A DNA stretch of 34,456 bases, taken from positions 1-34,456 of the IMG/VR virus record IMGVR_UViG_3300048854_000098. One strand, given 5' to 3'. A program made the translations under genes and the position numbers. Positions 19,333-34,048 of this stretch are shown here, in pieces (position 1 is the first letter of the stretch; each line of letters starts with the position of its first letter). This DNA comes from a virus. Its lineage: Duplodnaviria > Caudoviricetes. Below the pieces are notes generated by a model. It was not told where the DNA came from. It made no database searches and was given only the letters and a program-made list of their open reading frames with translations.

Positions 19333-19538
19333 TACAGTCCCTTGCCTCCGTGGTAAAGCCGGACCACGCGCGAACGTGGCCCGGCAGCGTTGAGCAGCGA
19401 GGTGCGAATTTCGTCGCGGGCCTGCAACAGCTCGGTGATGGTGCGGTACTCGACGGTGCGGTCGCCGAAGCGAACGGTTTTTTCACCGCGCGCGATGGCC
19501 TTCTCGATTACGTCGAGGTGCTGTTGGGTAAAGGACAT
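19332..19538 (-). CDS. Head-tail adaptor, lambda gpW-like
   Basis: 68 aa, AIARG...V...DRTVEY; between terminase and portal. Confidence 0.88.
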   Translation of the reverse strand: MSFTQQHLDVIEKAIARGEKTVRFGDRTVEYRTITELLQARDEIRTSLLNAAGPRSRVVRLYHGGKGL

Positions 19539-19539
19539 A

Positions 19540-21576
19540 TCAGCGTCTCTTCAAATAACCGCTGGTAGAGCTGCGGCGTTGTGACGGCGATGCAGCAGGT
19601 CGCGGGGGTGCGACAGGTGCTGCCGGTGTAGGCGGTGCAAGCTGGGCTTGCCGGAAAACAGCCGGCAGCGCTGTTTCGGCAGTTTGGGCTTGTTCAACAC
19701 GCGGGGCCTGGACAGGCTGAACCGGTGCATCGTCGAACAGTCCGGATTGTGCCAAGGCTTGCCGCACCCGATCCCAGTCATGCTCCTGGTACCGATTAAT
19801 GCCCAAGTAATGCGCCATGGCCAGGCAATACACCATCAGGTCTAGTGCTTCGTTGCGCTCGGCTTTGCCCTTGATCCACTCGACACGTTTATGGCCGCGG
19901 ACGTAGCGAGCGACCTTTCGTTCTGCCACACATTGGGCGAAGAAGTCGTCCGGCAAATCGTTGGCAAAATGCAGCGAGCCGGGTCCATCCGGGAACGGGT
20001 AACGGTTGTAGATCCAGTCCTTGGCGGTGTCGGTACCGACGAACCACAGCTCGGCGCCGTGGCGCTCGGTCTGACCCTTCCAGGTCACGTCGACCATAGA
20101 GGGCCGCTGGGCAATCACCGGTCTGCCGGGCTTGCTCGCACCTTTGATGGCGAAGATGTTGCGCCAGCGCCGCATGCGGCAGAACTGGTAGACCTCATCG
20201 GTGTGATGGCCCCCGGAGTCGACAGCCGTGGCAAGAATCGCCAAGCCGACACCGCAAGGGTGCCGGTAGCGAGCTTTGAGCAAGTCATCAAGTACCGCCC
20301 AAGTTCGCTCATCAGCGGGATCGCCTGAGATCACCTTGTGATCAATCACCCAACGCTCCATACCAAATCCCCAGCCCATGACCATCAACTCCAGACGGTT
20401 AGCCTGAACGTCGACGGCGGCGGTAAGCATCAGCGAACCGGACGGCATTGAGCCGAGTCCGTAGCTTTCCAGACGCGCCCGGTCCATAAGAACATCGGCT
20501 TTGGTTTGCTCTTGAGCGCTGTCCCAAACCTTGGCCAGGCGGGTGTTGTAGAACACCTGCATCGGTTCAAGATCGCCTTTCGCCTGTGCCCGCTTGGCCT
20601 TCTCGTACTGCCTGGCCAGCGTACGCCAGTCCATCCAGCCTGGTGGCGAGTACAACGCGTTGAGATGAAAGCCAACCGTTTCGCCATCACCTTCGGCATG
20701 GGCTATCCACTCGCCATTGGCAAGCATCCAGCCCTTATGGTGCTCCTCGATCAACACGTCGCACTCAGGCCCAGCACACTGGTAGTGAATGAGCTGGTAA
20801 TCCTTGGAGTAGAGCAAACGTTCCCACTCCAGTACCTGCTTGTGCCCGCAAGTTGGACACGGCACGTAGAAGTAACGTTGATCGCTGGACTCGAACAGAT
20901 CACTGATACGCGAAGCACCTTTGATCGTTGGTGAGCTGGAGAAGTAGAACTTGGCATTCCGGCCAAAGGTACTGCCCCGAGTCTCTGCCAGCTCGATGGG
21001 ATCACCCTCCTCTCCGACGTCGACTTCCCAACGATCCACCTCATCGCCGTACACATAGCGCGCTGAGAGCTCGGCCAAGTTGGCCGCGGAACCCGCAGTG
21101 GTCACGTACAGCGAACCACCTTCAAACTCTTTGGTGTCCATCGTGTTACGGGAGTCACGAGACCGACTGGACGCCACTCGCTTACGCAGAACGGGCGTGG
21201 CCTTGATGGTCTTGCTGATCCTCGATGACACCCGCTTAGCCAGGCTAAGGCTCGGCAGCAGTGTCAGGATATTGGACGGTGCCATATGGATCAGGCCACC
21301 AATCCAATTTAAGGCGATTTGGGTTTTCATCAACTGCGAAGCCACCATCGTAACGACGCGCTTGCAGGGGTGAGCTGGCGATAAACAGCGCATCGGCTCA
21401 CGTGCGTAAGGGGTGCGAGAGGTGCGGTATTGGCCGGGCTCAGCGGCACCTGAATCACGCGGAATACGCATGTATTCGTCGGCCCACTCGTCCACCCACA
21501 CATCCGGGTCAGGTTGAAGCCCCCGGAAATAAGCCTCGCAGTACACCGTCGCTCCATCAGATCTGGTCAGGTTCAT
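19540..21576 (-). CDS. Terminase large subunit, lambda gpA family
   Basis: RTPY.RE.M, SQ..KT Walker A variant, DEVD Walker B, SSPT, CP.CG, DVQ and D-G nuclease motifs. Confidence 0.96.
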   Translation of the reverse strand: MNLTRSDGATVYCEAYFRGLQPDPDVWVDEWADEYMRIPRDSGAAEPGQYRTSRTPYAREPMRCLSPAHPCKRVVTMVASQLMKTQIALNWIGGLIHMAPSNILTLLPSLSLAKRVSSRISKTIKATPVLRKRVASSRSRDSRNTMDTKEFEGGSLYVTTAGSAANLAELSARYVYGDEVDRWEVDVGEEGDPIELAETRGSTFGRNAKFYFSSSPTIKGASRISDLFESSDQRYFYVPCPTCGHKQVLEWERLLYSKDYQLIHYQCAGPECDVLIEEHHKGWMLANGEWIAHAEGDGETVGFHLNALYSPPGWMDWRTLARQYEKAKRAQAKGDLEPMQVFYNTRLAKVWDSAQEQTKADVLMDRARLESYGLGSMPSGSLMLTAAVDVQANRLELMVMGWGFGMERWVIDHKVISGDPADERTWAVLDDLLKARYRHPCGVGLAILATAVDSGGHHTDEVYQFCRMRRWRNIFAIKGASKPGRPVIAQRPSMVDVTWKGQTERHGAELWFVGTDTAKDWIYNRYPFPDGPGSLHFANDLPDDFFAQCVAERKVARYVRGHKRVEWIKGKAERNEALDLMVYCLAMAHYLGINRYQEHDWDRVRQALAQSGLFDDAPVQPVQAPRVEQAQTAETALPAVFRQAQLAPPTPAAPVAPPRPAASPSQRRSSTSGYLKRR

Positions 21577-22189
21577 CTATCACCTCCCAGTTAGTATCCA
21601 GTGTGTGGCCGAATTCCTCAGAGGACATACGGCCGGCGTCCTCAAGCCGTTGTCTCAATGCTGCAGTCAGGTGTCGTTCGATCTCCCATGGATCCGACAT
21701 GGCCGCCAGTTCCGGAGCCAGCTGCGGTGGCATACCCAGCAACGTGTCGCGAAGCATGCGACCGGCGTTGTATGCCCCGGACTGAACTGCCGTAACCTCG
21801 ACTGTTGAGCCCTGTGCTTTGTGAAACTCCATCTCGGCCATCTGCGCCAAGTAGAACTCACGGTGCGCGCGTGCCTTCTGAAAATCCGGATGCTTGTCTG
21901 TCGTCGGAGCCGCCAGCGGCGGCGCAGCCATGGAAGTCGGCTCGGTTTGGGTCGACAGTTGGCTGTAAACGTTGCGCTGAATCCGATCTTGTTGATGGCG
22001 TTCAGCAACGGCGGCCTTGCTCGGGTCGGCGGTGTCGCGAATCAGCGCTTCGGTGGCATGTACATCAACCTGTTTGCCATTGGGCGAAAGCACCAAACGG
22101 TTGTTGTCTTTCAGCCAGGTGATGTAACTCGGCGACCTGCCGAGCCGGGCCGCGAAGGCGCTCTTCGACAGGTAGGTTGGTTCTGTCAT
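21557..22189 (-). CDS. Terminase small subunit
   Basis: Start ATG 22189 with AGGAGG RBS; N-terminal wHTH (SKSAFAARLGRSPSYI), coiled coil; between cos and TerL. Confidence 0.88.
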   Translation of the reverse strand: MTEPTYLSKSAFAARLGRSPSYITWLKDNNRLVLSPNGKQVDVHATEALIRDTADPSKAAVAERHQQDRIQRNVYSQLSTQTEPTSMAAPPLAAPTTDKHPDFQKARAHREFYLAQMAEMEFHKAQGSTVEVTAVQSGAYNAGRMLRDTLLGMPPQLAPELAAMSDPWEIERHLTAALRQRLEDAGRMSSEEFGHTLDTNWEVIDEPDQI

Positions 22190-22200
22190 GAGCCCTCCTT

Positions 22201-22327
22201 TTTCAACGTATTTCAATGAATCCTTTCAAGATTTCAATGATTGAAATTTCAGTAAGCTGGGAAGTCTGCGGCTAACAGTTTCCCGCGGGTTTCCGACCCC
22301 GTGTCCTTCAGATACCCCTAGGGTCCC
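22201..22327 (-). other. Lambda-like cos packaging site (cosQ-like 22321-22327, cosN 22288-22299, cosB-like repeats 22201-22252)
   Basis: Minus strand acacg-GGGTCGGAAACC-cgcggg aligns with lambda ttacg-GGGCGGCGACCT-cgcggg; GGGACCC upstream; six (T)TGAAA repeats before terS. Confidence 0.75.
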
Positions 22328-22357
22328 CGGCGGTTTTCGGCGCACCAGATCGGTGCA

Positions 22358-22702
22358 TCACCCCTGTTCACCCCCGGCTGGCGGGACTTCGCAGACGCCC
22401 AGCCGCTTGGCAGCCCATCGTTCGTACAACCCGATGGCTACGTCCGCACCGGCCATCGCCGTGAGGCACCCCAAGGCGCCCGCCGTCCAGATCGTCATGC
22501 CGGCGGCGATCATCAACATCATCGCCGACACCCCGCAGACAATGCAGGCGCCAGATCGAAGTGCCAGCCGGCGCAACAATGCCCAGCCCCGCGCCCCATC
22601 CTTATCGGCCCGCCACATTTCCCCCGATACGCCGCCGACCAGGGCCAGGACGATCACTAACCAGATTGGCATCTCTGCCAGCGCTTGTTGCTCGTTTGTC
22701 AT
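22358..22702 (-). CDS. Holin (Pseudomonas tailocin/phage family)
   Basis: MTNEQQALAEMPIW..GGVSGEMWRAD; 3 TM segments; first late gene. Confidence 0.88.
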   Translation of the reverse strand: MTNEQQALAEMPIWLVIVLALVGGVSGEMWRADKDGARGWALLRRLALRSGACIVCGVSAMMLMIAAGMTIWTAGALGCLTAMAGADVAIGLYERWAAKRLGVCEVPPAGGEQG

Positions 22703-22719
22703 CGCCAACCCCTAAACGC

Positions 22720-22745
22720 AAAAACCCGGCGCAATGGCCGGGTTT
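22720..22745 (-). terminator. Late-leader terminator before the holin
   Basis: aaacccggc-N6-gccgggttt with U-tail on -. Confidence 0.75.
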
Positions 22746-22796
22746 GGTGGTGGGTGCCTGCCGCTCTCTGCGGTCGCACCTATCGAAGATGACTAC

Positions 22797-22894
22797 TTTT
22801 TACAGGTCGATTCCGGTGGCAGCAACCCTGTTTTAATGCCACCCGGTGAATAAGTGGGTAACGCAGGGTGAACGCCTAGCGAATGTCCGTGAAT
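22797..22894 (-). promoter_or_regulatory. Late promoter (TTGCTG-N17-TAAAAA) with five helically phased upstream repeats
   Basis: -35 at 22825-22820, -10 at 22802-22797; GYGAAY-like repeats starting at 22846, 22857, 22868, 22879, 22889. Confidence 0.6.
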
Positions 22895-22925
22895 ACACCA
22901 CCACGGCATTCTGCTGTTTCAGCGG

Positions 22926-23203
22926 TGTCCCATTCGTCCCACCTCCTTGAATCGAAGTGGGACGCCTGAGAGCGCCAAAATTTGGGGCTTCGCCCCACTG
23001 TCCTACTTATCTTTCTCCTTTCTCGTGTAAAGGAAGAAATTTAAAGAACACGCGTTCGCGCGTAAGCGCGTACTGCTCGTCCGCTACGCTCACACGGGCG
23101 GGAGGCACTTCCAAGCGGGACGGTGGGACAACCCAACAAAGACAAGGCCCGCACCTGTCCCACTGCATCAAAACGCAGCGAGACAAGACGGGCCAGTGGG
23201 ACA
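22926..23203. repeat. Putative replication origin: GTCCCAC/GTGGGAC repeats in both orientations around an AT-rich core
   Basis: Exact or near copies at about 22926, 22936, 22957, 22992, 22999, 23115, 23123, 23156, 23196; AT-rich 23007-23050; downstream of the primase-helicase. Confidence 0.55.
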
Positions 23204-23228
23204 GCAACAGCGGGAGCGATGCTTGGGG

Positions 23229-23588
23229 TCACGCAGCCAGCCCCATCATCACGCCGAAGATCTGCAGATGCGCCTCATGCAAACGCTGGTAGTACGTGTC
23301 GCGGCCACAACCGCAATGGGCGTACCGCAAACGCATATCCACATCGTGCGTGCAGTAGTGCTCACGCACGACCGTCACCAGCTCGGGCGCGAGATGCTTG
23401 TTCACGATCAGCTCGATGTCCAGCGAACTCTCCAGCGGCGCACGAAAGGCACGTCGCCCCCGAATCAATTGACCATTGGTCTCCATCATCATGGCCACCA
23501 TATTCCCACCTGCGAGACCTCCGCTTGAGAGATCCGAATGCAGGTCCAGTGCCCACGACCGAAGAAGTGAATCGATCTCCTTAATCAT
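23229..23588 (-). CDS. Late-gene regulator, PA0613/AlpA-like (Q-type antiterminator candidate)
   Basis: Start ATG 23588; ID.LL..WA N-terminus and C-terminal HTH TYYQRLHEAH; Q position upstream of late promoter and terminator. Confidence 0.65.
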   Translation of the reverse strand: MIKEIDSLLRSWALDLHSDLSSGGLAGGNMVAMMMETNGQLIRGRRAFRAPLESSLDIELIVNKHLAPELVTVVREHYCTHDVDMRLRYAHCGCGRDTYYQRLHEAHLQIFGVMMGLAA

Positions 23589-25800
23589 CGAAACAAGGCT
23601 CCTCGAACGCTTCCCGCTGCAACGCCGAAGCACCGCCCCACCCTGCCGGCTTCTTGTAAGCCCACGGCCGCTGCCCACTCTTCACCAACGCAGCCAACCG
23701 CACTCGCCGCCACCCCAACCGATGCATGATCGCCCCGACACGCATCTGCTCCGGTTTACCCCAATGCCCGAAGTCCAGCTTCAGCGCATTGGCCAGCACC
23801 TCACTGCCCGTGGTGGTCTCGCCGATCTGCGACTCCTCGAGCCAGGTCAGAATCGGACCTTCCCACTCATCCACCACAAAGCGCTCGTCCTGCTCCTCAC
23901 CGAACATCGACGCCTCATCCAGCGTCACCCACCAAAGGTCGCCCGCGTCATAGCAGAACACCGCCTCGGCCCAGAGCTGTTCACGGATCGAACGCAACAA
24001 TTCCAGATCCACCTTGGTACACGCCACCGGCCAGTAACGCCGGTTACCGGTCGCGTCCTTCAGGTACTCGTCCTGGTTGGTCGTACCCACGAACACGCAC
24101 TGACGCGGCACGTCCATCGTGCGGCGGCCGTAGCTCTCGCGGTAGGTGTCCGTCGACGCGGAGAAAAACTGCTTGGCCTTGGTGCTCTCGGCCTTGTTGA
24201 AACTGTCCAGCTCACCCAGCTCGACGATCCACTTGCCCCGGATCGCCTGAAACCCGTCCTTGTCGCCCAGGGCAAACGGCGTATCCATGAACCACTCACC
24301 GCCGAGAATGCTCATCGCCGTCGACTTACCAGCGCCCTGCGCGCCCTCAAGGATCATCACCGAGTCAGCCTTGCAGCCCGGCTTCATCACCCGCGCCACG
24401 GCTGACAACATCCAGCGCTTGCCAACCTTGGACGAGTAGTCGGTCGCCTTGACGCCCATGACGTCCGTGAGCCAACTTTCCAGGCGCGGCACGCGATCCC
24501 ATTCGAGCTTGCGCAGGTACTGCCGCACCGGATGAAACGCATGGTCATGCGCAACCACACTCACCGCCTCGATCACATGCGAGGCCTTGACCCGCAAGTT
24601 GTACTGCTGCGCGAGCCACTTCATAACCCGCACATCATCAATGTCTGCCCAATCGCCGGTGCCGCCGCCATAAGGCGCCGCACGCAGCTTTACGATCTTC
24701 GAACTGAACGCGCTGTAACTGATGACCCCGGCCCAGCGTTCGTCATTGGCCAGGATCAACTCGACGTTCTGCATGTGCGCAATCAACGCCCCGCTTTCGC
24801 TACGTGCCAACAGATCCTTCCAACCACCAGCGGCCGGGGGCTTGACAACCGCCAACACCTGACGACGCACCGCTTCCAAACCTTCCGCGACATGCAGGTC
24901 GTTGAAGTCGGTCCACTTGTCCTCGCGTTCGCCAGAGAAGATCGGTGCAACGACCTGGCCACCGACGATCAACGCCGCGTTGTTGGCTTTTTCCTCACCG
25001 GGATTCCAGGCATCACCATTCGGCTTGGTGGTCTTCCAGTCATCATCCCTGCAGATGATCAGCGGGCAACCGGCGAAACGCTCGCGCATCGCTTTGCACA
25101 CCACCAGCAGGTTACCGGCATCAAAAGCGATGGCCACGGTCAGTGACGTGGCCATGTGCAGACTGGCGCCGGTGGCGTAGCCCTCGCAAACCAGCACTGG
25201 CTCTCCCGGATCAGGATGCGGCCCGATCAGGTGAAAAGCCCCCTCCTTCGACATCCCATAAGGCCAGTAGGATTTATCGCGACCGGTGTCTTGCTGCTTG
25301 GTCGGAAACACCACCTGCAGGCCGACAATCTCGTCGCGCACATTGCTCATCGGCACCAGAAACGCGCCGGTACGCGGCGCATACCGAACGCCGAAGCCGA
25401 CAATCTGCTTTCGATCCAGATAGTCGCTACGGCCCTTTTCCGGCATGCGCTTAAACATCCCCGACGCCCGGTTCGCCGCACGACGTGCCGCATTCGCCGA
25501 GATCTCGGCCGCCCGACGCTTTGCCTCTTCCTGCCGAGCGCGCATGACCTCACGCTCTTCCGGCGACATCCGTCCGGCCTTCACCTTGATCTTTTGCGAC
25601 TCACCCGAACGCCAATCACCAAATGCGCCGAAAATCAGCGTCTCGCCTTTCTCGGTGCGATGCTCATGGGCGATGTACCAACCGTTTTTTTCCTTGCCCT
25701 TATCCTGCGCCGTCTTGCACCGGGTTAGCTTGCCAAACACCAATGGCTGTGCAGGCTCAAGCCCGTAATCCGCGAATTGCCCCAACACCTCATCGAGCAT
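23581..25800 (-). CDS. Toprim primase fused to VapE-family helicase/ATPase
   Basis: CEGYATG and D-D-D Toprim motifs, TDFNDL; GAQGAGKST Walker A, WIVELGEL, GTTN, TGNRRYW. Confidence 0.92.
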   Translation of the reverse strand: MLDEVLGQFADYGLEPAQPLVFGKLTRCKTAQDKGKEKNGWYIAHEHRTEKGETLIFGAFGDWRSGESQKIKVKAGRMSPEEREVMRARQEEAKRRAAEISANAARRAANRASGMFKRMPEKGRSDYLDRKQIVGFGVRYAPRTGAFLVPMSNVRDEIVGLQVVFPTKQQDTGRDKSYWPYGMSKEGAFHLIGPHPDPGEPVLVCEGYATGASLHMATSLTVAIAFDAGNLLVVCKAMRERFAGCPLIICRDDDWKTTKPNGDAWNPGEEKANNAALIVGGQVVAPIFSGEREDKWTDFNDLHVAEGLEAVRRQVLAVVKPPAAGGWKDLLARSESGALIAHMQNVELILANDERWAGVISYSAFSSKIVKLRAAPYGGGTGDWADIDDVRVMKWLAQQYNLRVKASHVIEAVSVVAHDHAFHPVRQYLRKLEWDRVPRLESWLTDVMGVKATDYSSKVGKRWMLSAVARVMKPGCKADSVMILEGAQGAGKSTAMSILGGEWFMDTPFALGDKDGFQAIRGKWIVELGELDSFNKAESTKAKQFFSASTDTYRESYGRRTMDVPRQCVFVGTTNQDEYLKDATGNRRYWPVACTKVDLELLRSIREQLWAEAVFCYDAGDLWWVTLDEASMFGEEQDERFVVDEWEGPILTWLEESQIGETTTGSEVLANALKLDFGHWGKPEQMRVGAIMHRLGWRRVRLAALVKSGQRPWAYKKPAGWGGASALQREAFEEPCFDD

Positions 25801-26017
25801 GGTGTGCCCCCTTCAACTCCACGAGAGAAAGGCATCCCACACACTGCGTGCAGCCGGGCTGCGCCAAACGGCGAGCTTCAGGGATAGGATCATCACACGT
25901 TTCGCAGAACAGAAACGAATGCGCCACCAAGGCAGGCTTGGTGGCGTTGCGTGCAGCGAGCGCCTGATCGATACGTTCCTGCACCAGGTCATTTGCGAAG
26001 TCAGCAATGTCAGCCAC
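25790..26017 (-). CDS. TraR/DksA C4 zinc-finger protein (PtrB-like)
   Basis: GTG start 26017; MADIADFA (D-x-x-D-x-A), C..C...IPEARR...PGC..CV.C. Confidence 0.9.
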   Translation of the reverse strand: MADIADFANDLVQERIDQALAARNATKPALVAHSFLFCETCDDPIPEARRLAQPGCTQCVGCLSLVELKGAHHAR

Positions 26018-26528
26018 GATCAACACCCCGCGTCGTCTGGTTGACATACGTGGCGCGGTTGAACAATCCCAACAGCCCTTGAATCCCACGGAACACCTGC
26101 AGGCGAATCGCGGCGAGTTCCTCATCGGAAACCACCCCGTCGCCAATGCTCTTGGCCCAGGTATCCGCCAGATCCGCCACTTGCCGGAAGTACTCGGCAA
26201 TCCCGGTGGTCAGCGTCTCGGGCATGTCGTTGGTGTACGCCTCAGCCAGCTCCTGCCAAGTCGTGTCACCGACCAAGGCATGCACTGCATCCAGAATGCG
26301 GCGATCCTTGGTCAGCTCCAGAATCTCGCCGAACTCTTGAATATTGACTGTGTGGCTGGGATGGGTTGGGGACAGCTTGTGCTGCAGCGTGGTCGCATTG
26401 CGGCCGGTGGTGGCGGCGATGGCGGCGGCGCCACCGGGGTAGTCCCGGGCGGCATGGTAAAGCGCGAGATCGAGCGGCAAAACTTCCCGCTGCGCCCGCT
26501 CAACGGAGCTCAGAATGATACGGCTCAT
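26010..26528 (-). CDS. Phage regulatory protein, CII family
   Basis: DYPGG..A.A...G....TLQHKLSP..H, DG.V...E motifs. Confidence 0.82.
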   Translation of the reverse strand: MSRIILSSVERAQREVLPLDLALYHAARDYPGGAAAIAATTGRNATTLQHKLSPTHPSHTVNIQEFGEILELTKDRRILDAVHALVGDTTWQELAEAYTNDMPETLTTGIAEYFRQVADLADTWAKSIGDGVVSDEELAAIRLQVFRGIQGLLGLFNRATYVNQTTRGVDRG

Positions 26529-26587
26529 GGCATTAATCCTTGTAAGTTGCCAGTGCCGCGCGACATGCAGTGGTGATACATTTGCCG

Positions 26588-26856
26588 CGTGGCTTGAAAG
26601 GGCCCAAACGCCGGCTAGATCTACGGGATCGATACCGGCACCGTGCCGGGGCGAGCAATCCGTTGCTCACCCCAGGCGCAACAGCTGCCAAATCTGTGGT
26701 GGAAGAGGCAGCAACACCAAGGCTTCCGAGCCTTGGAAAAGCGCGATAAAGGGAGGTGGTTGCATGTGGTGTGCCCACCTATCTTTAGCGCGACCCGACA
26801 GCGCTGTGGTGGTGCGTGCCGGGAGGAACTGGGCGACCGTTGGGTCGCCTTTTTTC
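26588..26856 (+). ncRNA. Putative multi-hairpin antisense/regulatory RNA with three GUGGUG loops
   Basis: Extended -10 TGaTACATT (26574-26582); about 8 consecutive hairpins with GAAA/UCCG loops and + strand G-U pairs; intrinsic terminator 26832-26855. Confidence 0.65.
26832..26855 (+). terminator. Intrinsic terminator facing the cro stop codon
   Basis: ggcgacc-gttg-ggtcgcc-tttttt. Confidence 0.8.
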
Positions 26857-26859
26857 TTG

Positions 26860-27120
26860 CTATGCAGCAGCTTTATGAGGGGCCGAAGCGTTCAACAGCC
26901 AAGCTGCTTGGAAGGCGTTACCTTTTTGCTTAGCAGCCGTCGCCAGCAACTCAGCGTATTTGGTTTCACCGGTGTAATCCGTTCGCGGCAGGCAAGCGGC
27001 CTGACGCCATTTGTTCAACGCCTGATAGCTTCTATTGCATGCCTTCGCGGCGGCCCCGATGCCGCCTACGGCTTCAAACGCGAATGCAATTGCGCTCGGA
27101 AAATCTGCGGGGTCCAGCAT
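26860..27120 (-). CDS. Cro-like HTH regulator
   Basis: ATG 27120 with GGAGG RBS; GG..AAAKAC.RS.QAL.KW...LPRTDYTGET motif; divergent from the repressor. Confidence 0.85.
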   Translation of the reverse strand: MLDPADFPSAIAFAFEAVGGIGAAAKACNRSYQALNKWRQAACLPRTDYTGETKYAELLATAAKQKGNAFQAAWLLNASAPHKAAA

Positions 27121-27134
27121 GACAACCTCCATTT

Positions 27135-27208
27135 ATCAACTCGTGGTTGATGTTATAGATCAACTGACTATTGCGCAACCTTTATGAGACTCTCAACTCA
27201 TGGTTGAT
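27135..27208. promoter_or_regulatory. Switch-region operators: 17-bp ATCAAC-N5-GTTGAT sites
   Basis: 27135-27151 (perfect), 27192-27208 (over the repressor ATG), weaker 27159-27175; leftward promoter TTGCGC-N17-TAACAT at 27178-27150. Confidence 0.7.
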
Positions 27209-27937
27209 AAAAATACTCTCCGCGCAGCTTTCAGCGAGCGCCTACACGAAGCACTCGACGATGCCGGCGTACGTAGCCGCGGTCGTGGGGTCGATATCCA
27301 TCGTAAATTGAAAAGCTTGGGAGTAGATAAGACGACGCAGGCCATAAGCAAGTGGCTGAATGGGGAGGCGATAGCTGAAGCTGATAGCATGGCCGCACTT
27401 TGCACTTGGCTGGATGTGCGCAGAGAATGGTTGGAGTATGGGGTCGCCCCGAAAGAACTGCCCGGCAAAACTCATGGAAATGTGTACAGCGTGAGTAATT
27501 ACGGAGAGAGCAATGTCCGCGAAATCAACCAGCGCTTCGGTAAGGTTCCACTCATCTCTTGGGTTCAGGCCGGCGCTTGGTGTGAAGCTATCTCTAACTT
27601 CGAGTCATATGAGGCAGACGCATGGATATCTTGCCCGGTTCCGATCAGCAGTCACGGGTATGCATTGAGAGTGCTTGGCGACTCAATGACTAATCCCGGA
27701 TCCGGTCGCAGCTATCCAACTGGATGCATCATTTTCGTTGATCCCGACGCGGAGACCAAAACAGGGGACCGAGTGATTGCTAGGCTGCCACGAACCAATG
27801 AAGCCACATTTAAAATATTGGTTGAAGATGCCGGCAGGCAATACCTAAGACCAATAAATCCACAGTATCCAATTATTGAAATCACAGAGGAAACCCACAT
27901 CTGCGGGAAAGTAGTGGGCTCTTTTATCCCTGACTAA
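27200..27937 (+). CDS. CI/PrtR-like repressor: N-terminal HTH plus S24 autopeptidase
   Basis: QAISKWLNG HTH; VPLISWVQAG (Ala-Gly cleavage site), GDSM, ATFK. Confidence 0.95.
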   Translation: MVDKNTLRAAFSERLHEALDDAGVRSRGRGVDIHRKLKSLGVDKTTQAISKWLNGEAIAEADSMAALCTWLDVRREWLEYGVAPKELPGKTHGNVYSVSNYGESNVREINQRFGKVPLISWVQAGAWCEAISNFESYEADAWISCPVPISSHGYALRVLGDSMTNPGSGRSYPTGCIIFVDPDAETKTGDRVIARLPRTNEATFKILVEDAGRQYLRPINPQYPIIEITEETHICGKVVGSFIPD

Positions 27938-27961: not shown

Positions 27962-28975
27962 CTACTTCACTTCAAAGGTATTATAGTAATTAATTGTGTC
28001 ATTTCCCCGCATATCGTAATCCGCAATATAAACGCGGGCACCTTGAGTTATTAGTTTCCTACCAAAATCCTTCAAGTATTCGACGTCTGATTTGAAGTTC
28101 CCCAAGCTCAGCATCTGATGGCCTAGGTTAGTCAGAATATAGCCAGATATAACTACTGAGGCGTTTTGTTGTGGATGATTTATAAGCAGACACTTGTTAT
28201 TTGCAAGAACGGTTCGCGACCACGGGGCGCCATCCTCGCTTGAAAACGTTCTGCGAACACCTCCTCCTGATACACCGCTGATAATGCCCAAGGTGTCAAG
28301 CTCTAGAAGTTGATTAAAAGACAGGTGACTATCGAGATTTTCGTCCAACAATACCAAGCCGTCGACTGTAAGCTGGCATGCAACCTCTATGAGTTTTGCT
28401 TCAGATTGTTCTAAATTTCTCAGAAACTCCATACACCTTAAGCTGTATGTGCCTGGGGCCTTTACCTCTCCAGCCAATAAACTTCCCCACAATCTTTGCA
28501 TATCCTCAGAGCTAACATCCCCAGCGTAGTCTCGCCATCTATAAACCCAGTCATCATTAACTTTTTCATCAGTTGCACTATCATCATTCTCAGTATGGAT
28601 TTTCTCTTCAGCATGAAGGATAGCTTTAGCAACGTTAATTTCTTTTCTTATCGAGTCGAGCGCTGTGCGATTATTCGATTGCTCTATAAGGTCCACAATA
28701 TCTAGCGTGGGTTCAACTCGTTCTGCGAGTCCAGTGAGTGACTTTGCAGACGAAAATTTTAATTGTAGATTGAAGTCTGATAAAGACTTTGTACCAGAAT
28801 TTATTTCTTCAACGTCTCGCGCAGCCTGAGCAAGAGTTAATAGCTCTGCTCTTTTTAGCTCTAATCCAACCAAGCCTTCACGTCTTTGCTGACCAGGTCG
28901 TAGCCAACCGCCTATGGCTTTCTCTGAAAGGGTTTCCCAGAGCTTTATCATCAGTTTTTCGCCAGGTAATTCCAT
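27962..28975 (-). CDS. DUF2806-like protein, AT-rich moron in the immunity region
   Basis: DDW..RW...A.DVS.EDMQ.LWG.LLAGEVK.PG.YSLR motif; low GC; convergent with the repressor. Confidence 0.75.
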   Translation of the reverse strand: MELPGEKLMIKLWETLSEKAIGGWLRPGQQRREGLVGLELKRAELLTLAQAARDVEEINSGTKSLSDFNLQLKFSSAKSLTGLAERVEPTLDIVDLIEQSNNRTALDSIRKEINVAKAILHAEEKIHTENDDSATDEKVNDDWVYRWRDYAGDVSSEDMQRLWGSLLAGEVKAPGTYSLRCMEFLRNLEQSEAKLIEVACQLTVDGLVLLDENLDSHLSFNQLLELDTLGIISGVSGGGVRRTFSSEDGAPWSRTVLANNKCLLINHPQQNASVVISGYILTNLGHQMLSLGNFKSDVEYLKDFGRKLITQGARVYIADYDMRGNDTINYYNTFEVK

Positions 28976-29073: not shown

Positions 29074-29117
29074 ATCAACCTTTGGTTGTTGACAATTAGC
29101 AACTATCAGTTGATATT
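29074..29117 (+). promoter_or_regulatory. Early rightward promoter (TTGACA-N17-GATATT) overlapped by two repressor operators
   Basis: Operators ATCAAC-ctttg-GTTGTT (29074-29090) and AGCAAC-tatca-GTTGAT (29098-29114); -35 at 29089-29094. Confidence 0.75.
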
Positions 29118-29152
29118 TGCCTTACTCTTCCACCACAGAGCGAGGCAAAACC

Positions 29153-29329
29153 ATGCACACCGCAGCAACCCTGCACGTCCACCCGGCCGCTGCTGACCCT
29201 TCCCGTATCTTCGAGATCCGCCGCCTAGCACGTGAGAGCGGTTGCTCGTTTGTCACCAGCAAACCGAAGCAGCAAGCTCGCACCTCCCCCACCCCATTCG
29301 ATCCAAACGGCGGAGGGCACGCGGCATGA
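29153..29329 (+). CDS. Small early protein, 58 aa
   Basis: GAGG RBS, ATG 29153; ends GG.AA with ATGA coupling. Confidence 0.7.
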   Translation: MHTAATLHVHPAAADPSRIFEIRRLARESGCSFVTSKPKQQARTSPTPFDPNGGGHAA

Positions 29330-29916
29330 TCAAGTACAAAATCGACAACCGTACACTGCAGTTGCTCAATGCCCAGGTCAACCTGACCGAGACCTTCAAC
29401 CACGTCCTCAGGACAGCGCCCAAACGTGAGTTCCTGGCGTTCCGTCTCAAGGTCGACCGCGGTACTACGGAGAGCACTTTCGTCGTCGAGATGGGCAGCG
29501 AACGCCACACGCTGACCCTGCCAAACGACAAAAAAATGCACCTCAAGCTAGCCGACTTCATCGAAGAGATCGCCAACGGCCCCTTCGACGCAAGCAACAC
29601 AAGCGATCTGGTAAACCACCCGCACGCCAGCCGCGAATACGGCCGCTTCGAGGTCTCGGACAAACAACGCGTTCTGGAACTGGTAGGCAGCGGCGGCGTG
29701 TTAAGCCTCGACATGGGCTTCGACTACCCCCTACACGTTGCGCTGCACCGCACCCAATCGCGCTCGGGCGTCACCACCATCCTGAGCATCGGCAACACAA
29801 GCCCGCATACCCGGTGCTTCACCGTATACGGCACCGATGTCGAGATCTATGGCAAGGTCACCGAGTCCATCAACCACCTCGCTGCAGCGGCCACCCCAGC
29901 CGCGCACGCGGCATGA
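29326..29916 (+). CDS. Hypothetical early phage protein, 196 aa
   Basis: GGAGG RBS and ATGA overlap. Confidence 0.8.
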   Translation: MIKYKIDNRTLQLLNAQVNLTETFNHVLRTAPKREFLAFRLKVDRGTTESTFVVEMGSERHTLTLPNDKKMHLKLADFIEEIANGPFDASNTSDLVNHPHASREYGRFEVSDKQRVLELVGSGGVLSLDMGFDYPLHVALHRTQSRSGVTTILSIGNTSPHTRCFTVYGTDVEIYGKVTESINHLAAAATPAAHAA

Positions 29917-29926
29917 GGGGGACGCC

Positions 29927-30211
29927 ATGGAACGCACCCTCGCCCAGGCCGCAACCCAACTCGGCCTGACCCGGCCCAAGCTCATCGCTCGCATGCGGGA
30001 GAAAGGCCTGCTCACCGAACGGAACCTGCCGGCCTACCCCAACCGTGACCGCGACTACCTGCGAATCAAGGATGGCCAGTGGTACCACGACCAGCTCGGC
30101 ATGCAGTACAGCCAGTCGACCAAAGTGAAACAACCTGGCATCCGCTGGCTGGCGGAACATTTGGGGATCGACCTTCCTGCCATACCGGCAGACAACCGTG
30201 ACGTGGCCTAG
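29927..30211 (+). CDS. Antirepressor KilAC-domain protein
   Basis: AA..LG..R.KL...MRE.G.L...NLP...T.V...GI.WL pattern. Confidence 0.75.
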   Translation: MERTLAQAATQLGLTRPKLIARMREKGLLTERNLPAYPNRDRDYLRIKDGQWYHDQLGMQYSQSTKVKQPGIRWLAEHLGIDLPAIPADNRDVA

Positions 30212-30371: not shown

Positions 30372-30765
30372 TCAACAGATCCTCGAACTGCTGCGTACTC
30401 CGGTAACCAACCGAACCCAACTGCACGTCGCCTCGGCGTTGGCACGCATCGCCGAGGCAGCCCAACTGATCCAAGCGTCACGGCCTGACGACTTTGGCAC
30501 TCAACCCTACCTGTTCGAACTGCAACGCGAACAACTCAAATTGGCAGCAATTGCCGACTTTCTTGGAGAGGAACTGAACTTCAAACACTGTGACACGCAG
30601 CTCAATATCCGTGAGTCGGGCCTCACTTGGCATACCGCCCTGACCGTACTGTTCACCAACCCCAACTCTCAAGCAGGCGACCCTTTTCTAATCGGTCATG
30701 GAAATACTGCCGAAGAAGCCCTGCGCGACCTCCACACCATGATCAAGGGCGGTCGAGCGGCATGA
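30352..30765 (+). CDS. Hypothetical protein, 137 aa
   Basis: AAGGAG RBS, ATGA coupling to the next gene. Confidence 0.75.
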   Translation: MDNDLIDQQILELLRTPVTNRTQLHVASALARIAEAAQLIQASRPDDFGTQPYLFELQREQLKLAAIADFLGEELNFKHCDTQLNIRESGLTWHTALTVLFTNPNSQAGDPFLIGHGNTAEEALRDLHTMIKGGRAA

Positions 30766-31079
30766 AGGATTCCAGCCAAAACCCGCTCCGTCTGCACCTA
30801 GCCCCGGAATCAGCGACAGTCGAATTGCTCTACCGCATCTTCGGCGACGTCCTGATCCCGCTGGACAAGGTGCGCGAGCAGTACTTCCGCAACCTCAACG
30901 AGCAATCGTTCGTGGCCGAGATCAGCAGCGGCCGCATCCAGCTCCCCATCACCACGCTGGACACCAGCCGCAAGGCACCGAAATACGCCCACATCCGGCA
31001 CGTCGCCTCACTGATCGACATCCGCGCCTACAAGGCCGACGAAGATATGCAACGACAGCAGGACGACACCAACGAGTAA
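30762..31079 (+). CDS. prtN: Pyocin activator PrtN-family transcriptional activator
   Basis: TVELLYRIFGDVLIPL.KVRE.YFRNLN...F.....SGRI.LP.TTLD.S.KA closely resembles P. aeruginosa PrtN. Confidence 0.85.
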   Translation: MKDSSQNPLRLHLAPESATVELLYRIFGDVLIPLDKVREQYFRNLNEQSFVAEISSGRIQLPITTLDTSRKAPKYAHIRHVASLIDIRAYKADEDMQRQQDDTNE

Positions 31080-31136
31080 TACCCAATACCGAACGGCTGC
31101 CACCACCAGCCAATGACATCACCAGGAGCACACCAC

Positions 31137-31616
31137 ATGACTGCAGTTCAAATCTACGCGCTGATAGCAATCGTCCTCATGATGGCCGCCACCTATTGGC
31201 TCGCCTACCGGAATGGTTTCAGCAATGGCCACGCCGAAGGCCAATCAGAGGGTTACAGCGAAGGCTATGACGTCGGCGGCTGCGTAGGGTATCGAGATGG
31301 AATGGATGAGGGAAAAGCCATTCAGCGATCTGAAAGCTGGGAAGAGAATCGTAACTTGGAACTTGCCCTCTGCCAGGCCAATGACCAACGCGAGAAACTT
31401 TACGCTCATTACGAGCGCGCCCTCGCTGCGACGAAACTGGGTGAACAAGAACGACTGACCCTATTGGAAATCGCCGAAAAACTACGGATCGCATCTGAGA
31501 CGTTCAGCGCCTTCCGCACCGGCAAAAAACTGGAACGCGACACACGTGGTCTCCGTGATCAAGCGCTCGCCATTGCAGCCCTGCTGGAGCCGGCAAATCA
31601 GGAGAGCGCCGCATGA
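31137..31616 (+). CDS. Membrane-anchored protein with G-x-x-x repeats and coiled coil
   Basis: AGGAG RBS, ATG 31137; N-terminal TM then GFSNGHAEGQSEGYSEG. Confidence 0.8.
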   Translation: MTAVQIYALIAIVLMMAATYWLAYRNGFSNGHAEGQSEGYSEGYDVGGCVGYRDGMDEGKAIQRSESWEENRNLELALCQANDQREKLYAHYERALAATKLGEQERLTLLEIAEKLRIASETFSAFRTGKKLERDTRGLRDQALAIAALLEPANQESAA

Positions 31617-32224
31617 GCCAGATCTGCCCTCAATCGAATACCCACCGCAACACGGCTCACGCCCCTTCCGCGGCTGATGAACCAACGCGCACTCGAACCT
31701 CGGAGGAAAGCGGCATGCAAAAGGACCAGCACAACACCCAATCCACGACCGCTTTGCTCCGCAAGGAAACCAGCGTCGACACACCAGAAACAAACAGCCT
31801 CTGCTGCGCAGCAGCAGGCATTATCGCTCCTTCCAGCAGCACCACCGAGGCGCTTATACCCCACGAAAAGCTGCGCGAGGCAGCCACACCCAATGCAACG
31901 CTAATCGCTCAGAATTGCCCGCCCGCGCAGCCTGCTGTGGGGTATACGCACCCTGACAGCAACTCTGAAAGCCTTTCACAAGAAGCCGCCGACGAGATTC
32001 AGATCGACGAGCGCGCTGAGTTCGAGAAGGAGTTCCCAGTCCCCGAAGGCCTGCAGTACTGCACTCAGCGAGGCACGTACATCACCGCACCAGGTGCAAA
32101 GACATCCGACTCGTTCGCCCGTGAGCATTACGCATACCGGGCCGGCTTCGCCGCATGGAAGCGCAGAGCGTGGAAGCACGCCGTAATCGTTGCCCAACGA
32201 GCCAAGGGAGAGGTGTTGCAATGA
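31613..32224 (+). CDS. Hypothetical protein; low-complexity N-terminus, ERAEFEK-type C-terminal domain
   Basis: ATGA coupling at both ends; true start uncertain. Confidence 0.6.
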   Translation: MSQICPQSNTHRNTAHAPSAADEPTRTRTSEESGMQKDQHNTQSTTALLRKETSVDTPETNSLCCAAAGIIAPSSSTTEALIPHEKLREAATPNATLIAQNCPPAQPAVGYTHPDSNSESLSQEAADEIQIDERAEFEKEFPVPEGLQYCTQRGTYITAPGAKTSDSFAREHYAYRAGFAAWKRRAWKHAVIVAQRAKGEVLQ

Positions 32225-32490
32225 ATACCTTGTTTTTACTAATGGCTCAGTACGATGGGCAGGCAGTCATTCCGCTTGACAGGGTGTGCGCGGATTACAT
32301 GCATTTGACGGTGGAAAAATTCAAACGGAAACAGCTGGATGGTGAGATCGACATCGCAGTCGTGCGACTAGGCGCGAACTCCCAAAAAGCTGCGCTTGGA
32401 ATTCACCTGAAGGACCTAGCGGACTACATCGACCGGCAGCGCGAGAAAGCTATGAAAGAGCAGAATCAGTTGATGGGCAGAGCTGCATGA
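32221..32490 (+). CDS. Second PrtN-family wHTH protein, probable excisionase/directionality factor
   Basis: MNTLFLLMAQY.G.AVIPL..VC.DY..SQKA...HL.DLA.YID; last early gene, facing the integrase. Confidence 0.75.
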   Translation: MNTLFLLMAQYDGQAVIPLDRVCADYMHLTVEKFKRKQLDGEIDIAVVRLGANSQKAALGIHLKDLADYIDRQREKAMKEQNQLMGRAA

Positions 32491-32523: not shown

Positions 32524-32937
32524 TCATTTAGACGAGAGCAGTTCAAGCACCGGCTGCTTGAGCCTTATCAGAAAATGCATAGCCCAAAACATTCCCGCCA
32601 CCAGACCAACAATCGCGAACAGAATCCCTCTATTCCCCCCCCAATGAATGCCAAGTAACAACGCGCAGCCAGCAAACAGATAACCCAGAAACACGATGCA
32701 CAAGATGCGTCGAATCTTTCTCCAGAGCGAAGAGTTTTCTTCGGTATATGGACAGGCTGCGAGTTCAGACATCACATGGTAAGCAAGGCCTCCACCAAAA
32801 AGGATGGTGCAGAAAATCAGGTATTGGAAAACACTGAACTCATTCTGCGAGATCATTACGAAGTACCAAAGAAACAGGCTGACTGCCACGCCCCACAACA
32901 CCAACACGTTTCGCTTAACATCTAATAGCCTTTTCAT
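32524..32937 (-). CDS. Accessory 4-TM membrane protein downstream of the integrase
   Basis: 137 aa, four hydrophobic segments, GGGGAG RBS right after the int stop. Confidence 0.75.
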   Translation of the reverse strand: MKRLLDVKRNVLVLWGVAVSLFLWYFVMISQNEFSVFQYLIFCTILFGGGLAYHVMSELAACPYTEENSSLWRKIRRILCIVFLGYLFAGCALLLGIHWGGNRGILFAIVGLVAGMFWAMHFLIRLKQPVLELLSSK

Positions 32938-32947
32938 ATACTCCCCT

Positions 32948-34048
32948 TCAAAGATGTTTAGCGCACACTTGGCTTAGCCATTTCCATTGTTTGAATCTGT
33001 CTCCCCGACCTTTCAGATGGGTATAGCGACGCATTGAATTCCAATCTCTGTGACCAGAGACGCCGGCCACCCGGGGAATGTCCCAGTCCATCTCAAACAG
33101 CCGGCTTACCCCTTCATGCCGTAAATCATGGAAATGCAGATCCTCAATGCCGAGCATCGGGCAGGCCCGAGTGAAAGAGGCCGACACCGACTTCGCGTTG
33201 TAAGGGAAGATCTCCCTCTCAACCTTGGGCATGCTCTGCAGAATTGCCCAAGCCTCATCAGGCAGATGACACCACACATCATTACCAATCTTCTGCCCAG
33301 GGTTTTTCATATCGCGCACGAGGACAGCCTGTCGCGAATCGTCAAGATCATCCCAGCGAATCCTTGTAATTTCTTCCTGCCGACGTGTCGAAAAGAGCGC
33401 AAAGGCGATAACCTTCGGCATGTCGATCTGTGCCTTGCGGCGCTCCTGCATTTCGAAGAAATGCGCCATGAGCTTGTCCAGCTCCTCCAATGACGGTCGC
33501 CGGCTTCGCTCCTTGCTCTTGCTCACCATGCCTAGCTTACGCAACACCCTACGCGCGTCCGGCATCGCTAACGCATCCACCTCATAGCCCCAAGCAGGCC
33601 GGGCCACAGACAACACCGCCCCCAGGTGCGACAGATCGTTGCCAACCGTCTGCGCCTGAACGCCGCCGCCCTCTTTACTCATCCGCCATTGTGCGAACTC
33701 CACCAGCTTCTGACTGGTCAGCGCCGAGTCGTCGAGATCACCCAACCAGGTGTCCTTGATCGCATTCAGTGTTGCGTTCTTTGTCTTACCCAGCGGCCGG
33801 ATTTTCTCGTACTCATCCAGGTACTGCTCGATCATCTTCCTGATCGTCACACCCTTGCGGTTCGCTCGATCGATTGCACCAGGCTCAGACAGCTCAGTCT
33901 CACGCCGCTTGATCCAAGCCTGGGCGACCTGCTTACGGTCGAATGTTTGGCTTTCCTGATAAACTGTGCGCCCGTCCCGATTGATCCGTATCTGCGCCGT
34001 GTAGGCCGTCGAGTTGTCCTTGCGCTTGCGTGATGTGATCGTGCCCAT
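32948..34048 (-). CDS. int: Tyrosine integrase, dusA-associated type
   Basis: Catalytic R (STRRQEEI), HDLRH, GH..W..MRRY; divergent from dusA. Confidence 0.95.
   Translation of the reverse strand: MGTITSRKRKDNSTAYTAQIRINRDGRTVYQESQTFDRKQVAQAWIKRRETELSEPGAIDRANRKGVTIRKMIEQYLDEYEKIRPLGKTKNATLNAIKDTWLGDLDDSALTSQKLVEFAQWRMSKEGGGVQAQTVGNDLSHLGAVLSVARPAWGYEVDALAMPDARRVLRKLGMVSKSKERSRRPSLEELDKLMAHFFEMQERRKAQIDMPKVIAFALFSTRRQEEITRIRWDDLDDSRQAVLVRDMKNPGQKIGNDVWCHLPDEAWAILQSMPKVEREIFPYNAKSVSASFTRACPMLGIEDLHFHDLRHEGVSRLFEMDWDIPRVAGVSGHRDWNSMRRYTHLKGRGDRFKQWKWLSQVCAKHL

What the first reader, a model, noticed from the sequence alone, without database searches (positions are those of the whole stretch)
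26574..26856. Multi-loop antisense RNA whose three GUGGUG loops each match a different lytic leader of the same phage
Seen: the cII-cro gap contains a + strand unit with an extended -10 (TGaTACATT), a run of hairpins and a terminator. Structural hairpins with UCCG loops (26648-26673, 26717-26736) alternate with three hairpins exposing (U)GUGGUG. GAAA/UCCG loops, most G-U pairs and the U-tail favour the + strand. Loop 1 (26693-26707, tctgtggtggaagag) is the exact 15-nt complement of 29125-29139 at the start of the early rightward mRNA. Loop 2 (26763-26774) is the exact 12-nt complement of 31128-31139, covering the RBS spacer and ATG of gene 31137. Loop 3 (26807-26820) is complementary at 13/14 nt to the late leader at 22745-22758. 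The whole RNA is also antisense to the cro-cII leader. Known: P1 c4 and P4 CI are antisense immunity RNAs, but I do not recognise this sequence as either. Inference: a modular, possibly processed, multi-guide RNA (shared seed, target-specific flanks) controlling early and late expression as a second immunity or timing layer.
Basis: partly seen in the sequence, partly recalled or inferred. Interest (0 to 1): 0.9.

Follow-up and report, generated by a model that had tools for sequence, protein, structure and literature searches.

The report
Multi-guide phage RNA behind CII promoter
A conserved, folded 270-base stretch between the cro and cII genes of many Pseudomonas and Halomonas prophages carries loops that match, and change in step with, the start regions of the phage's own early genes, so it likely encodes a small RNA, predicted to be switched on by the CII protein, that would silence those genes and favour dormancy.

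Summary
All three matches are real; the third is to the minus-strand late leader. The unit is conserved and structured (32 of 86 pairs change on both sides), occurs in 64 of 401 sampled species genomes of the genus and has no Rfam match. A two-base variant of loop 2 is mirrored at its target in 9 of 9 loci against 0 of 182; P. aeruginosa, Halomonas and a blind-tested lineage show further matched variants. That favours pairing by a + strand RNA. Added here: the promoter carries an inverted repeat at about -59/-39, the geometry of phage 186's CII-activated pE; the 'UCCG' loops are better read as CsrA/RsmA-type GGA loops on the minus strand; loop 2 also targets the first early gene; RNA libraries hold the unit at high depth (contigs only, no strand). 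The loop 3/late-leader pairing shows no phage-specific fit. Best reading (0.7): a c4-like trans-antisense repressor of the early-left operon, not a c4-family member. The scan noted this RNA before on other DNA (seven notes). Function is untested.

The parts
26528..26552 (.). Inverted repeat TGGCA-N15-TGCCA, predicted CII binding site, half-sites centred at about -59 and -39
   Evidence: 237/241, 39/40 and 19/19 loci of three Pseudomonas groups by pattern; 13/13 Halomonas loci read by eye; spacer does not extend the pairing in 113/118 distinct units; 186 CII geometry -58/-38 from PMC6593788
26553..26582 (+). Sigma70-type promoter: -35 GTGCCG (26553-26558), extended -10 TG-a-TACATT (26574-26582); predicted +1 near 26589
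   Evidence: TACATT in 233 of 236 fluorescens-group loci; TAnnnT variants in P. aeruginosa, Halomonas and other lineages; activity not tested
26589..26857 (+). Predicted small RNA, about 270 nt, a train of hairpins
   Evidence: RNA-library contigs (no strand)
26643..26679 (-).
   Evidence: GGA in 253 of 254 loci; ANGGAN loop motif from PMC7652899
26684..26712 (+). Guide hairpin 1 (a-type loop); 26693-26707 complementary to the 5' end of the pL mRNA
   Evidence: rank 1 of 1890 sites by duplex energy; run of 10 or more in 191 of 220 loci
26717..26736 (-). Second GGA-loop hairpin on the minus strand (26729-26724)
   Evidence: GGA in 252 of 254 loci; 6 of 8 pairs with both-side changes
26742..26792 (+). 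Guide hairpin 2 (b-type loop); 26763-26774 complementary to the start regions of genes 31137 and 29153
   Evidence: ranks 9 and 8 of 1882
26794..26826 (+). Guide hairpin 3 (a-type loop); seed fits the hairpin at 31095-31111 and the late leader
   Evidence: late leader rank 23 and 31095 hairpin rank 215 of 1896
26831..26857 (+). Intrinsic terminator
   Evidence: T run of 5 or more in 236 of 236 fluorescens-group loci, G-U 37 versus A-C 0
29089..29117 (+). pL-type early promoter (TTGACA-17-GATATT), predicted +1 near 29124
   Evidence: a -35-like hexamer 41-43 nt before the target loop in most relatives
29125..29139 (+). Target T1a: hairpin with CCACCAC loop at the 5' end of the pL mRNA
29153..29170 (+).
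   Evidence: run of 8 or more in 178 of 220 loci
31095..31111 (+).
   Evidence: 165 of 218 loci; also in P. aeruginosa and Halomonas phages
31128..31139 (+). Target T2b: RBS spacer and ATG of gene 31137
   Evidence: run of 12 or more in 153 of 175 loci
22745..22758 (-). Site T3 in the late leader, directly 5' of the terminator 22745-22722 and the holin gene; weak support as a specific target
26010..26528 (-). cII, family PF06892 (CP76)
   Evidence: weak best PDB hits are 'Regulatory protein CII', E 0.15
26860..27132 (-). cro-like repressor gene
27200..27937 (+). cI-like repressor (peptidase S24)
29153..30211 (+). First part of the early-left operon: 58-aa gene coupled by ATGA to 29326-29916, then an antirepressor KilAC-domain gene 29927-30211 with its own RBS
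31137..32490 (+). Gene chain 31137, 31613, 32221 joined by ATGA overlaps; the last gene is a PrtN-family/excisionase-like gene beside the integrase

Best explanation
The cro-cII gap likely encodes a + strand small RNA of about 270 nt, predicted to be made from a promoter equivalent to phage 186's CII-activated pE and ended by a conserved terminator, whose GU-rich loops would pair with the phage's early-left mRNA and likely block translation of genes 29153 and 31137. Shown by sequence and comparison: the conserved fold, the promoter, box and terminator motifs, the loop-target complementarity and its coupled changes. Inferred: a-type loops (1 and 3) first kiss the CCACCAC hairpin loops that lie 15-30 nt before each start codon, and the b-type loop (2) then covers the RBS spacer or start codon, a two-site grip repeated twice in the operon. 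Inferred: both genes head ATGA-coupled chains, so the block would spread to gene 29326 and to the excisionase-like gene 32221, and by polarity perhaps to the antirepressor gene. Inferred: CII raises the RNA at the decision point, and basal synthesis or stability keeps it in the lysogen as a second, cI-independent brake. The same DNA read on the minus strand is the cro-cII leader, with two Rsm-type GGA loops, and is fully complementary to the RNA, so cII itself may be damped as by lambda OOP. An effect on the late leader is possible but poorly supported.
For: Coupled changes: loop 2 double variant mirrored at T2b in 9 of 9 loci versus 0 of 182 and at the 29153 start in 7 of 9 versus 1 of 228; the nine carry cI genes of at least two unrelated types (19-22% identity, six scored) and need 4 changes on a cII tree of 69 loci. 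Loop 1 variant mirrored in 7 of 14 versus 0 of 223. Three P. aeruginosa phages: 15-nt exact match to their own pL leader; Halomonas H4907: 13-nt matches to its own leader and first start codon; three Halomonas loop states each matched in codons 2-3. Blind test: a lineage found by protein profile only had the variant loop and both targets carried the matching variant. Across 14-17 lineage representatives cognate runs exceed non-cognate (12.65/10.51, 8.59/6.89, 9.50/7.98; 0, 0 and 4 of 20000 permutations). Strand: terminator G-U 37 versus A-C 0, loop 2 stem 144 versus 74; -10 keeps TAnnnT over all lineages. In the putida group a duplicated unit loses box and -10 together. RNA libraries: depth in the bin 26654-27014 is 8119, 2441 and 400 against 2-37 over the primase and holin bins in three of six runs laid.
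Against: No strand-specific reads exist; only contigs, found through this very stretch, from relatives about 85-95% identical; one run shows little enrichment (12-32) and two are flat. Locus counts are not independent events and some contigs occur twice; the loop 2 variant may have arisen once. Cognate is best or tied for only 8 of 17, 4 of 17 and 5 of 14 targets, and many loop 1/T1a pairs carry mismatches outside the seed. Loop 3/late leader shows no cognate preference. Some stems favour the minus strand (26608-26641: A-C 35 versus G-U 2) and several are undecided. In the putida group the cII-proximal copy keeps its loops without a consensus -10 or T tail. P. aeruginosa phages lack a T tail after the last loop. 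In phage 186 basal pE is negligible (PMC6593788), which sits badly with an abundant RNA in lysogens. The direction of the effect (repression) is inferred from position only.
Confidence: 0.7

Rival explanations
1. Nut-like cis elements: only the minus strand matters, and the CCACCAC hairpins in the pL, cro-cII and late leaders are direct repeats bound by a phage or host protein (antitermination or translational control).
For: Positions mirror lambda nutL and nutR (recalled); the CCACCAC loop is nearly invariant from Pseudomonas to Halomonas; a CACCA/CCAC site precedes the late terminator in 170 of 175 loci; GGA loops and one stem favour the minus strand; the putida duplicate keeps loops without a consensus promoter.
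Against: Single-base loop changes are mirrored inside coding sequence and RBS spacers in close relatives, which a protein would have to track by changing specificity; a conserved + strand promoter, box and terminator would be unexplained; no N-like gene was identified (gene 29153 has only unnamed families).
Confidence: 0.1
2. The RNA pairs as described but activates or antiterminates: a-type loops open the leader hairpins, which on longer transcripts hide the Shine-Dalgarno of gene 29153, or help read through the late terminator.
For: The T1a hairpin has a conserved lower stem of 4 or more pairs in 255 of 285 loci that takes in the SD side; T3 abuts a terminator stem.
Against: The predicted pL start lies above the lower stem, so it cannot form on pL mRNA; loop 2 covers the start codons themselves; a CII-type box points to a pro-lysogenic role (analogy).
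Confidence: 0.1
3. The promoter's main job is 186-style establishment transcription of cI by read-through; the hairpin RNA is its leader or attenuated product and the pairing is secondary.
For: Same protein family, box geometry and orientation as 186 pE; no T tail in P. aeruginosa phages and a weak one in some Halomonas loci.
Against: T tail in 236 of 236 fluorescens-group loci; loops are maintained and covary with distant sites. Not exclusive of the best explanation.
Confidence: 0.07
4. The abundant RNA is a processed minus-strand fragment acting as an RsmA/RsmE sponge, and the target matches are incidental.
For: Two invariant GGA loops; the deepest contigs lie on the second GGA hairpin (26707-26740).
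Against: Does not explain covariation or the + strand signals; that hairpin is also the most conserved stretch, so depths of many phages add up there; no such loops are evident in Halomonas H4907.
Confidence: 0.03

Closest known systems
c4 antisense RNA of P1/P7 (Rfam RF01695) and P4 CI RNA
   Same: Phage trans-acting antisense RNA with guide sequences in loops, aimed at RBS regions of an operon that holds an antirepressor (PMC12197685, passages); paired target sites (seqA/seqC in P4: PMC4825925, passages).
   Different: No Rfam match; about 270 nt with three to five guide hairpins instead of a roughly 85-nt unit (C4 alignment rows, PMC2864571 supplement); own promoter and terminator on the strand opposite to cro-cII rather than processed from the target transcript; targets lie kilobases away in another operon.
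Phage 186 pE, the CII-activated establishment promoter
   Same: CII of family PF06892; inverted repeat two helical turns apart at about -58/-38; promoter convergent with pR just upstream of cII (PMC6593788 passages; PMC8538670 introduction).
   Different: Here the transcript meets a conserved terminator before cro and carries guide loops; the -10 is close to consensus; half-site sequence differs from the one I recall for 186.
Lambda OOP and aQ RNAs, P22 sar RNA
   Same: Antisense control of the lysis-lysogeny switch; aQ comes from a CII-activated promoter (recalled), OOP is antisense to cII, sar to ant (PMC12197685).
   Different: Those are cis-encoded against one overlapping target; this one has several short trans guides that covary with their targets.
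Lambda nutL/nutR boxB elements
   Same: Near-identical hairpins after pL and between cro and cII (recalled).
   Different: No boxA or N-like gene identified; matches extend to start codons.

Membership tests
c4/CI antisense RNA (RF01695) | Scores above the Rfam gathering threshold | tested here: not met
   0 hits in the window, none near threshold in 26400-27250, 0 in six divergent loci
c4/CI antisense RNA (RF01695) | Short unit of about 85 nt encoded in the same transcript as its targets | tested here: not met
   about 270 nt, opposite strand to cro-cII, targets in the pL operon (versus 55, 81)
c4/CI antisense RNA (RF01695) | Loop sequences complementary to paired sites near an RBS | tested here: met
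   T1a/T1b and T2a/T2b
c4/CI antisense RNA (RF01695) | Target operon includes an antirepressor | tested here: inconclusive
   KilAC-domain gene at 29927 is in the operon but has its own RBS without the target motif
c4/CI antisense RNA (RF01695) | Processing to a mature RNA; immunity function | not testable with these tools
   contigs only
186 pE-type CII-activated promoter | CII of the CP76 family encoded downstream on the opposite strand | tested here: met
   PF06892 E 5.8e-21
186 pE-type CII-activated promoter | Inverted repeat two turns apart at about -38/-58 | tested here: met
   centres 26550 and 26530, -39/-59 from a predicted +1 at 26589; conserved
186 pE-type CII-activated promoter | CII binds and activates | not testable with these tools
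   needs EMSA or reporter
186 pE-type CII-activated promoter | Transcript reaches cI | tested here: inconclusive
   terminator intervenes in 236/236 fluorescens-group loci, absent in P. aeruginosa phages; read-through unknown
nut/boxB cis element | Same-sense hairpins in pL and pR transcripts | tested here: met
   CCACCAC hairpins at 29125 (+) and 26707-26693 (minus)
nut/boxB cis element | N-like antiterminator as first pL gene, boxA beside the hairpin | tested here: inconclusive
   gene 29153 has only unnamed families; boxA not searched
CsrA/RsmA binding site | GGA in a hairpin loop, ANGGAN | tested here: met
   minus strand, 253/254 and 252/254 loci; commonest loops ACGGAU, and UCGGAA at the second hairpin, which departs at the first base (motif)
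CsrA/RsmA binding site | Protein binding | not testable with these tools
   needs a binding assay

The most novel reading that the evidence does not exclude
In this phage clade the CII-activated establishment promoter has been turned into the gene for a reprogrammable array of RNA guides: modules are added, lost, duplicated and re-specified between lineages, commitment to lysogeny works partly by RNA silencing of the early-left operon instead of by making cI, and because the a-type seed is shared by phages of at least 21 cI types the RNA gives cross-immunity that ignores repressor specificity, while the opposite strand puts cII under host Gac/Rsm control.
Probability: 0.3. Interest if true: 0.88.

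Novelty: new variant of a known kind. Interest (0 to 1): 0.7.

Why it matters
It would add an RNA layer to the lysis-lysogeny switch of a very common group of Pseudomonas prophages (64 of 401 sampled species genomes of the genus) and link two known devices not found together in my searches: a 186-type CII promoter and c4-like trans-antisense guides. The natural compensatory alleles give ready-made allele-specific tests. A shared seed across many cI types predicts exclusion between heteroimmune phages, and GGA loops on the other strand predict host Rsm input to the decision.

Tried and rejected
Rfam at gathering and E-value thresholds: nothing. Folding z-scores and a consensus fold on both strands did not choose a strand. 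UCCG as + strand evidence: rejected. TTGCCA at 26547 as the -35: 24 nt from the -10, too far; it is the right half-site of the box. A coding role for the gap: its length varies over all three frames (110/75/51 loci). Loop 3/late leader as a covarying pair: two motif-based 2x2 tables were significant, but longest-run (99 of 2000) and duplex-energy (3362 of 5000) permutations were weak or null. One 2x2 table (loop 2 versus the 29153 start) was mis-specified, because the motif also matched the stem; it was redone. The lineage matrix has known flaws that lower the cognate score: L045 cut before loop 2, L331 one unit only, T2 anchors off for L103 and L334. The pattern scan returned chance hits in unrelated contigs (for example L412, L416, L420-L422, L437, L471, L472), which were not used. 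Ralstonia phage Dina (cII 36%) and one distant cII locus (L476) show no such unit. A class-wide profile search found 3 of 400 genomes (one genome not scored). Gene 29153 remains without a named family. Contig ends inside cII (26081-26318) were not used as transcript ends. Ten literature searches found no description of this RNA; the library lacks most subscription journals and bioRxiv supplements, where sRNA tables could list it.

Full report
Setting. The window is a temperate Pseudomonas phage with a contractile tail and lambda-like head genes, an integrase at 32948-34048 and the start of a Dus-family gene at the right end, which suggests insertion at dusA. The switch region reads cI (27200-27937, +), cro (27132-26860, minus) and cII of family PF06892 (26528-26010, minus). 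The rightward early operon starts at a TTGACA-17-GATATT promoter (29089-29117) and holds a KilAC antirepressor-domain gene and two PrtN-family, excisionase-like genes.

The observation. All three matches are as stated. The third is a same-strand match on +, hence complementary to the minus-strand late mRNA, just 5' of a terminator. Alone the 12-nt match is chance level (1553 of 2000 shuffles) and the 15-nt match modest (60 of 2000), but their concentration at gene starts is not (9 complementary 10-mers versus 0.26 expected, 0 of 2000; regions chosen with hindsight). By duplex energy over the window, T1a ranks 1 of 1890 for loop 1, the starts of 29153 and 31137 rank 8 and 9 of 1882 for loop 2, and the late site 23 of 1896 for loop 3.

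A conserved structured unit. I fetched loci through cII from viral contigs and genomes, five annotated phages and one pattern scan. Of 334 sequences held, 313 had enough flank and 254 fluorescens/putida-type units were aligned; loci were used only for single examples. Conservation runs from the cII start to the + strand T run and stops there, while cI falls into 21 clusters among 203 loci. On 26 chosen divergent rows, 93.6% of cells pair and 32 of 86 pairs change on both sides (shuffles 15.2; the structure came from the window's fold). The gap length varies over all three frames. The unit is found in 64 of 401 species genomes drawn from the genus of L081. Rfam has no match.

Loops follow targets. 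Each of two target regions has a CCACCAC hairpin followed by a second site at the start codon: 29125-29139 with 29153-29170, and 31095-31111 with 31128-31139. Perfect runs of 10 or more occur in 191 of 220 loci for loop 1/T1a, 159 of 175 for loop 2/T2b, 135 of 220 for loop 2/T1b and 35 of 175 for loop 3/T3. Nine loci with two G-to-T changes in loop 2 all have the mirrored changes at T2b, against 0 of 182 others, and 7 of 9 at the 29153 start, against 1 of 228. These nine lie on several cII backgrounds (4 changes on a 69-locus tree) with at least two unrelated cI types, so the match survives recombination, though the variant may have arisen once. A loop 1 variant is mirrored in 7 of 14 loci versus 0 of 223. 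Three P. aeruginosa phages and Halomonas H4907 have other flanks, each matching its own leader; Halomonas relatives show three loop states matched in codons 2-3 of the first gene, with imperfect cases too (L286, L287, L288, L292); L432 and L335 have different b-type seeds that match their own T2. In genome G038, found by protein profile with no DNA match, I read the loop first and then found the matching variant at both targets. Across lineages cognate beats non-cognate on average but is best or tied for under half of the targets: the seed is shared widely. Loop 3/late leader shows no cognate preference; the site is conserved as a seed match only, and by eye is absent from the putida and P. 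aeruginosa leaders.

Strand and promoter. The terminator is + strand (G-U 37, A-C 0; T run in 236 of 236). The loop 2 stem leans + (144:74), one 5' stem leans minus (2:35) and the others are undecided. The -10 keeps TAnnnT in every lineage. Upstream lies TGGCA-N15-TGCCA in 237 of 241, 39 of 40 and 19 of 19 loci by pattern (spacers of 14 in 31 units) and 13 of 13 Halomonas loci by eye. The spacer varies and does not pair; the box persists in the second, cro-proximal unit of putida-type phages where no cII ribosome site is needed, and decays together with the -10 in their first unit. Its centres are -59 and -39 from a predicted +1 at 26589. Phage 186 CII binds an inverted repeat two turns apart at -58 and -38 of pE (PMC6593788, passages). 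So this is probably the pE equivalent, but ended by a terminator before cro. An alternative reading of the box is a 5-6 bp RNA stem around the cII Shine-Dalgarno on the minus strand.

The other strand. The two 'UCCG' loops keep UCC and vary at the fourth base; on the minus strand they are GGA loops in 253 and 252 of 254 loci, like the ANGGAN loops bound by RsmE (PMC7652899, passages). The cro-cII leader is therefore likely a regulated RNA in its own right.

Expression. Seventeen runs on record as RNA hold 0.21-0.32 of the words of 26400-27200. Six were laid. In three soil runs the bin 26654-27014 has depth 8119, 2441 and 400 against 2-37 over the primase and holin bins; short contigs confined to the unit reach 17000-25000 (X3) and 463 (X11). 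One run shows little enrichment and two are flat. These are contigs of relatives, chosen by this stretch, summed over organisms and without strand: a hint of an abundant RNA in mostly quiet prophages, not proof.

Mechanism. Best reading (0.7): a trans-antisense repressor that grips each of two start regions at two sites. Genes 29153 and 31137 head ATGA-coupled chains ending in 29326 and in the excisionase-like 32221, so the block would spread; the antirepressor-domain gene has its own RBS and could be reached only by polarity. CII activation, repression, immunity and processing are inferred or untested. An abundant RNA in lysogens and a CII-dependent promoter are not yet reconciled. Rivals: nut-like cis hairpins (0.1), activation or antitermination (0.1), mainly cI establishment by read-through (0.07), Rsm sponge (0.03).

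Comparison and novelty. It works like P1 c4 and P4 CI (PMC12197685, PMC4825925, PMC3632133: passages) but fails membership on Rfam score, size and location (C4 rows in the PMC2864571 supplement; main-text passages). BTP1 STnc6030 is a long cis-antisense exclusion RNA (PMC7067206, passages). PMC8538670 (introduction) describes 186 CII and pE. Ten searches found no description of this RNA. This scan noted the same family on other DNA in seven earlier notes; my reading was stated before the first look-up, and those notes are not independent evidence. The pE-type box, the GGA reading and the RNA-library signal do not appear in the lines shown for those notes. Verdict: real, new variant of a known kind, interest 0.7.

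Noticed in passing
L157, L158, L164, L185, L188, L193 (putida-type), L331: Two tandem units between cII and cro; the cro-proximal one has the consensus -10 and terminator, the cII-proximal one has decayed signals but keeps its loops; L164 has a further duplication of the loop 2/loop 3 module.
   Followed up: partly
window 29116-29147: The T1a hairpin has a conserved lower stem (255 of 285 loci) that reaches upstream of the predicted pL start and takes in the SD side of gene 29153; it could form only on read-through RNA from cI.
   Followed up: partly
window 26553-26596: An inverted repeat with covarying arms flanks the -10 box in all lineages; it cannot form on the + strand RNA, so it belongs to the cII leader or to the DNA.
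   Followed up: partly
window 26635-26646: An invariant stretch with a palindrome (GGCAC-C-GTGCC) between two hairpins in all 26 aligned rows; unexplained.
   Followed up: no
window 27136-27207 and 29075-29113: Four CAAC-N5/6-GTTG repeats at pR and pL, probable CI operators.
   Followed up: no
window 27962-28975: A DUF2806 gene (PF10987) on the minus strand between cI and pL, in a slot whose length varies by kilobases among relatives; candidate accessory or defence gene.
   Followed up: no
window 30762-31079 and 32221-32490: Two PrtN-family (pyocin activator / excisionase-like) paralogues in one operon.
   Followed up: no
window 32524-32937: A small minus-strand gene of unknown function (phrog_17938) downstream of the integrase.
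   Followed up: no
window 34211-34456: Start of a Dus-family gene next to the integrase, consistent with integration at dusA.
   Followed up: partly
window 22896-22904 and loci at about -3620 from cII: A further CACCACCAC stretch on the + strand upstream of the late region matches loop 3 by 9 nt in many relatives; no known + strand transcript there.
   Followed up: no
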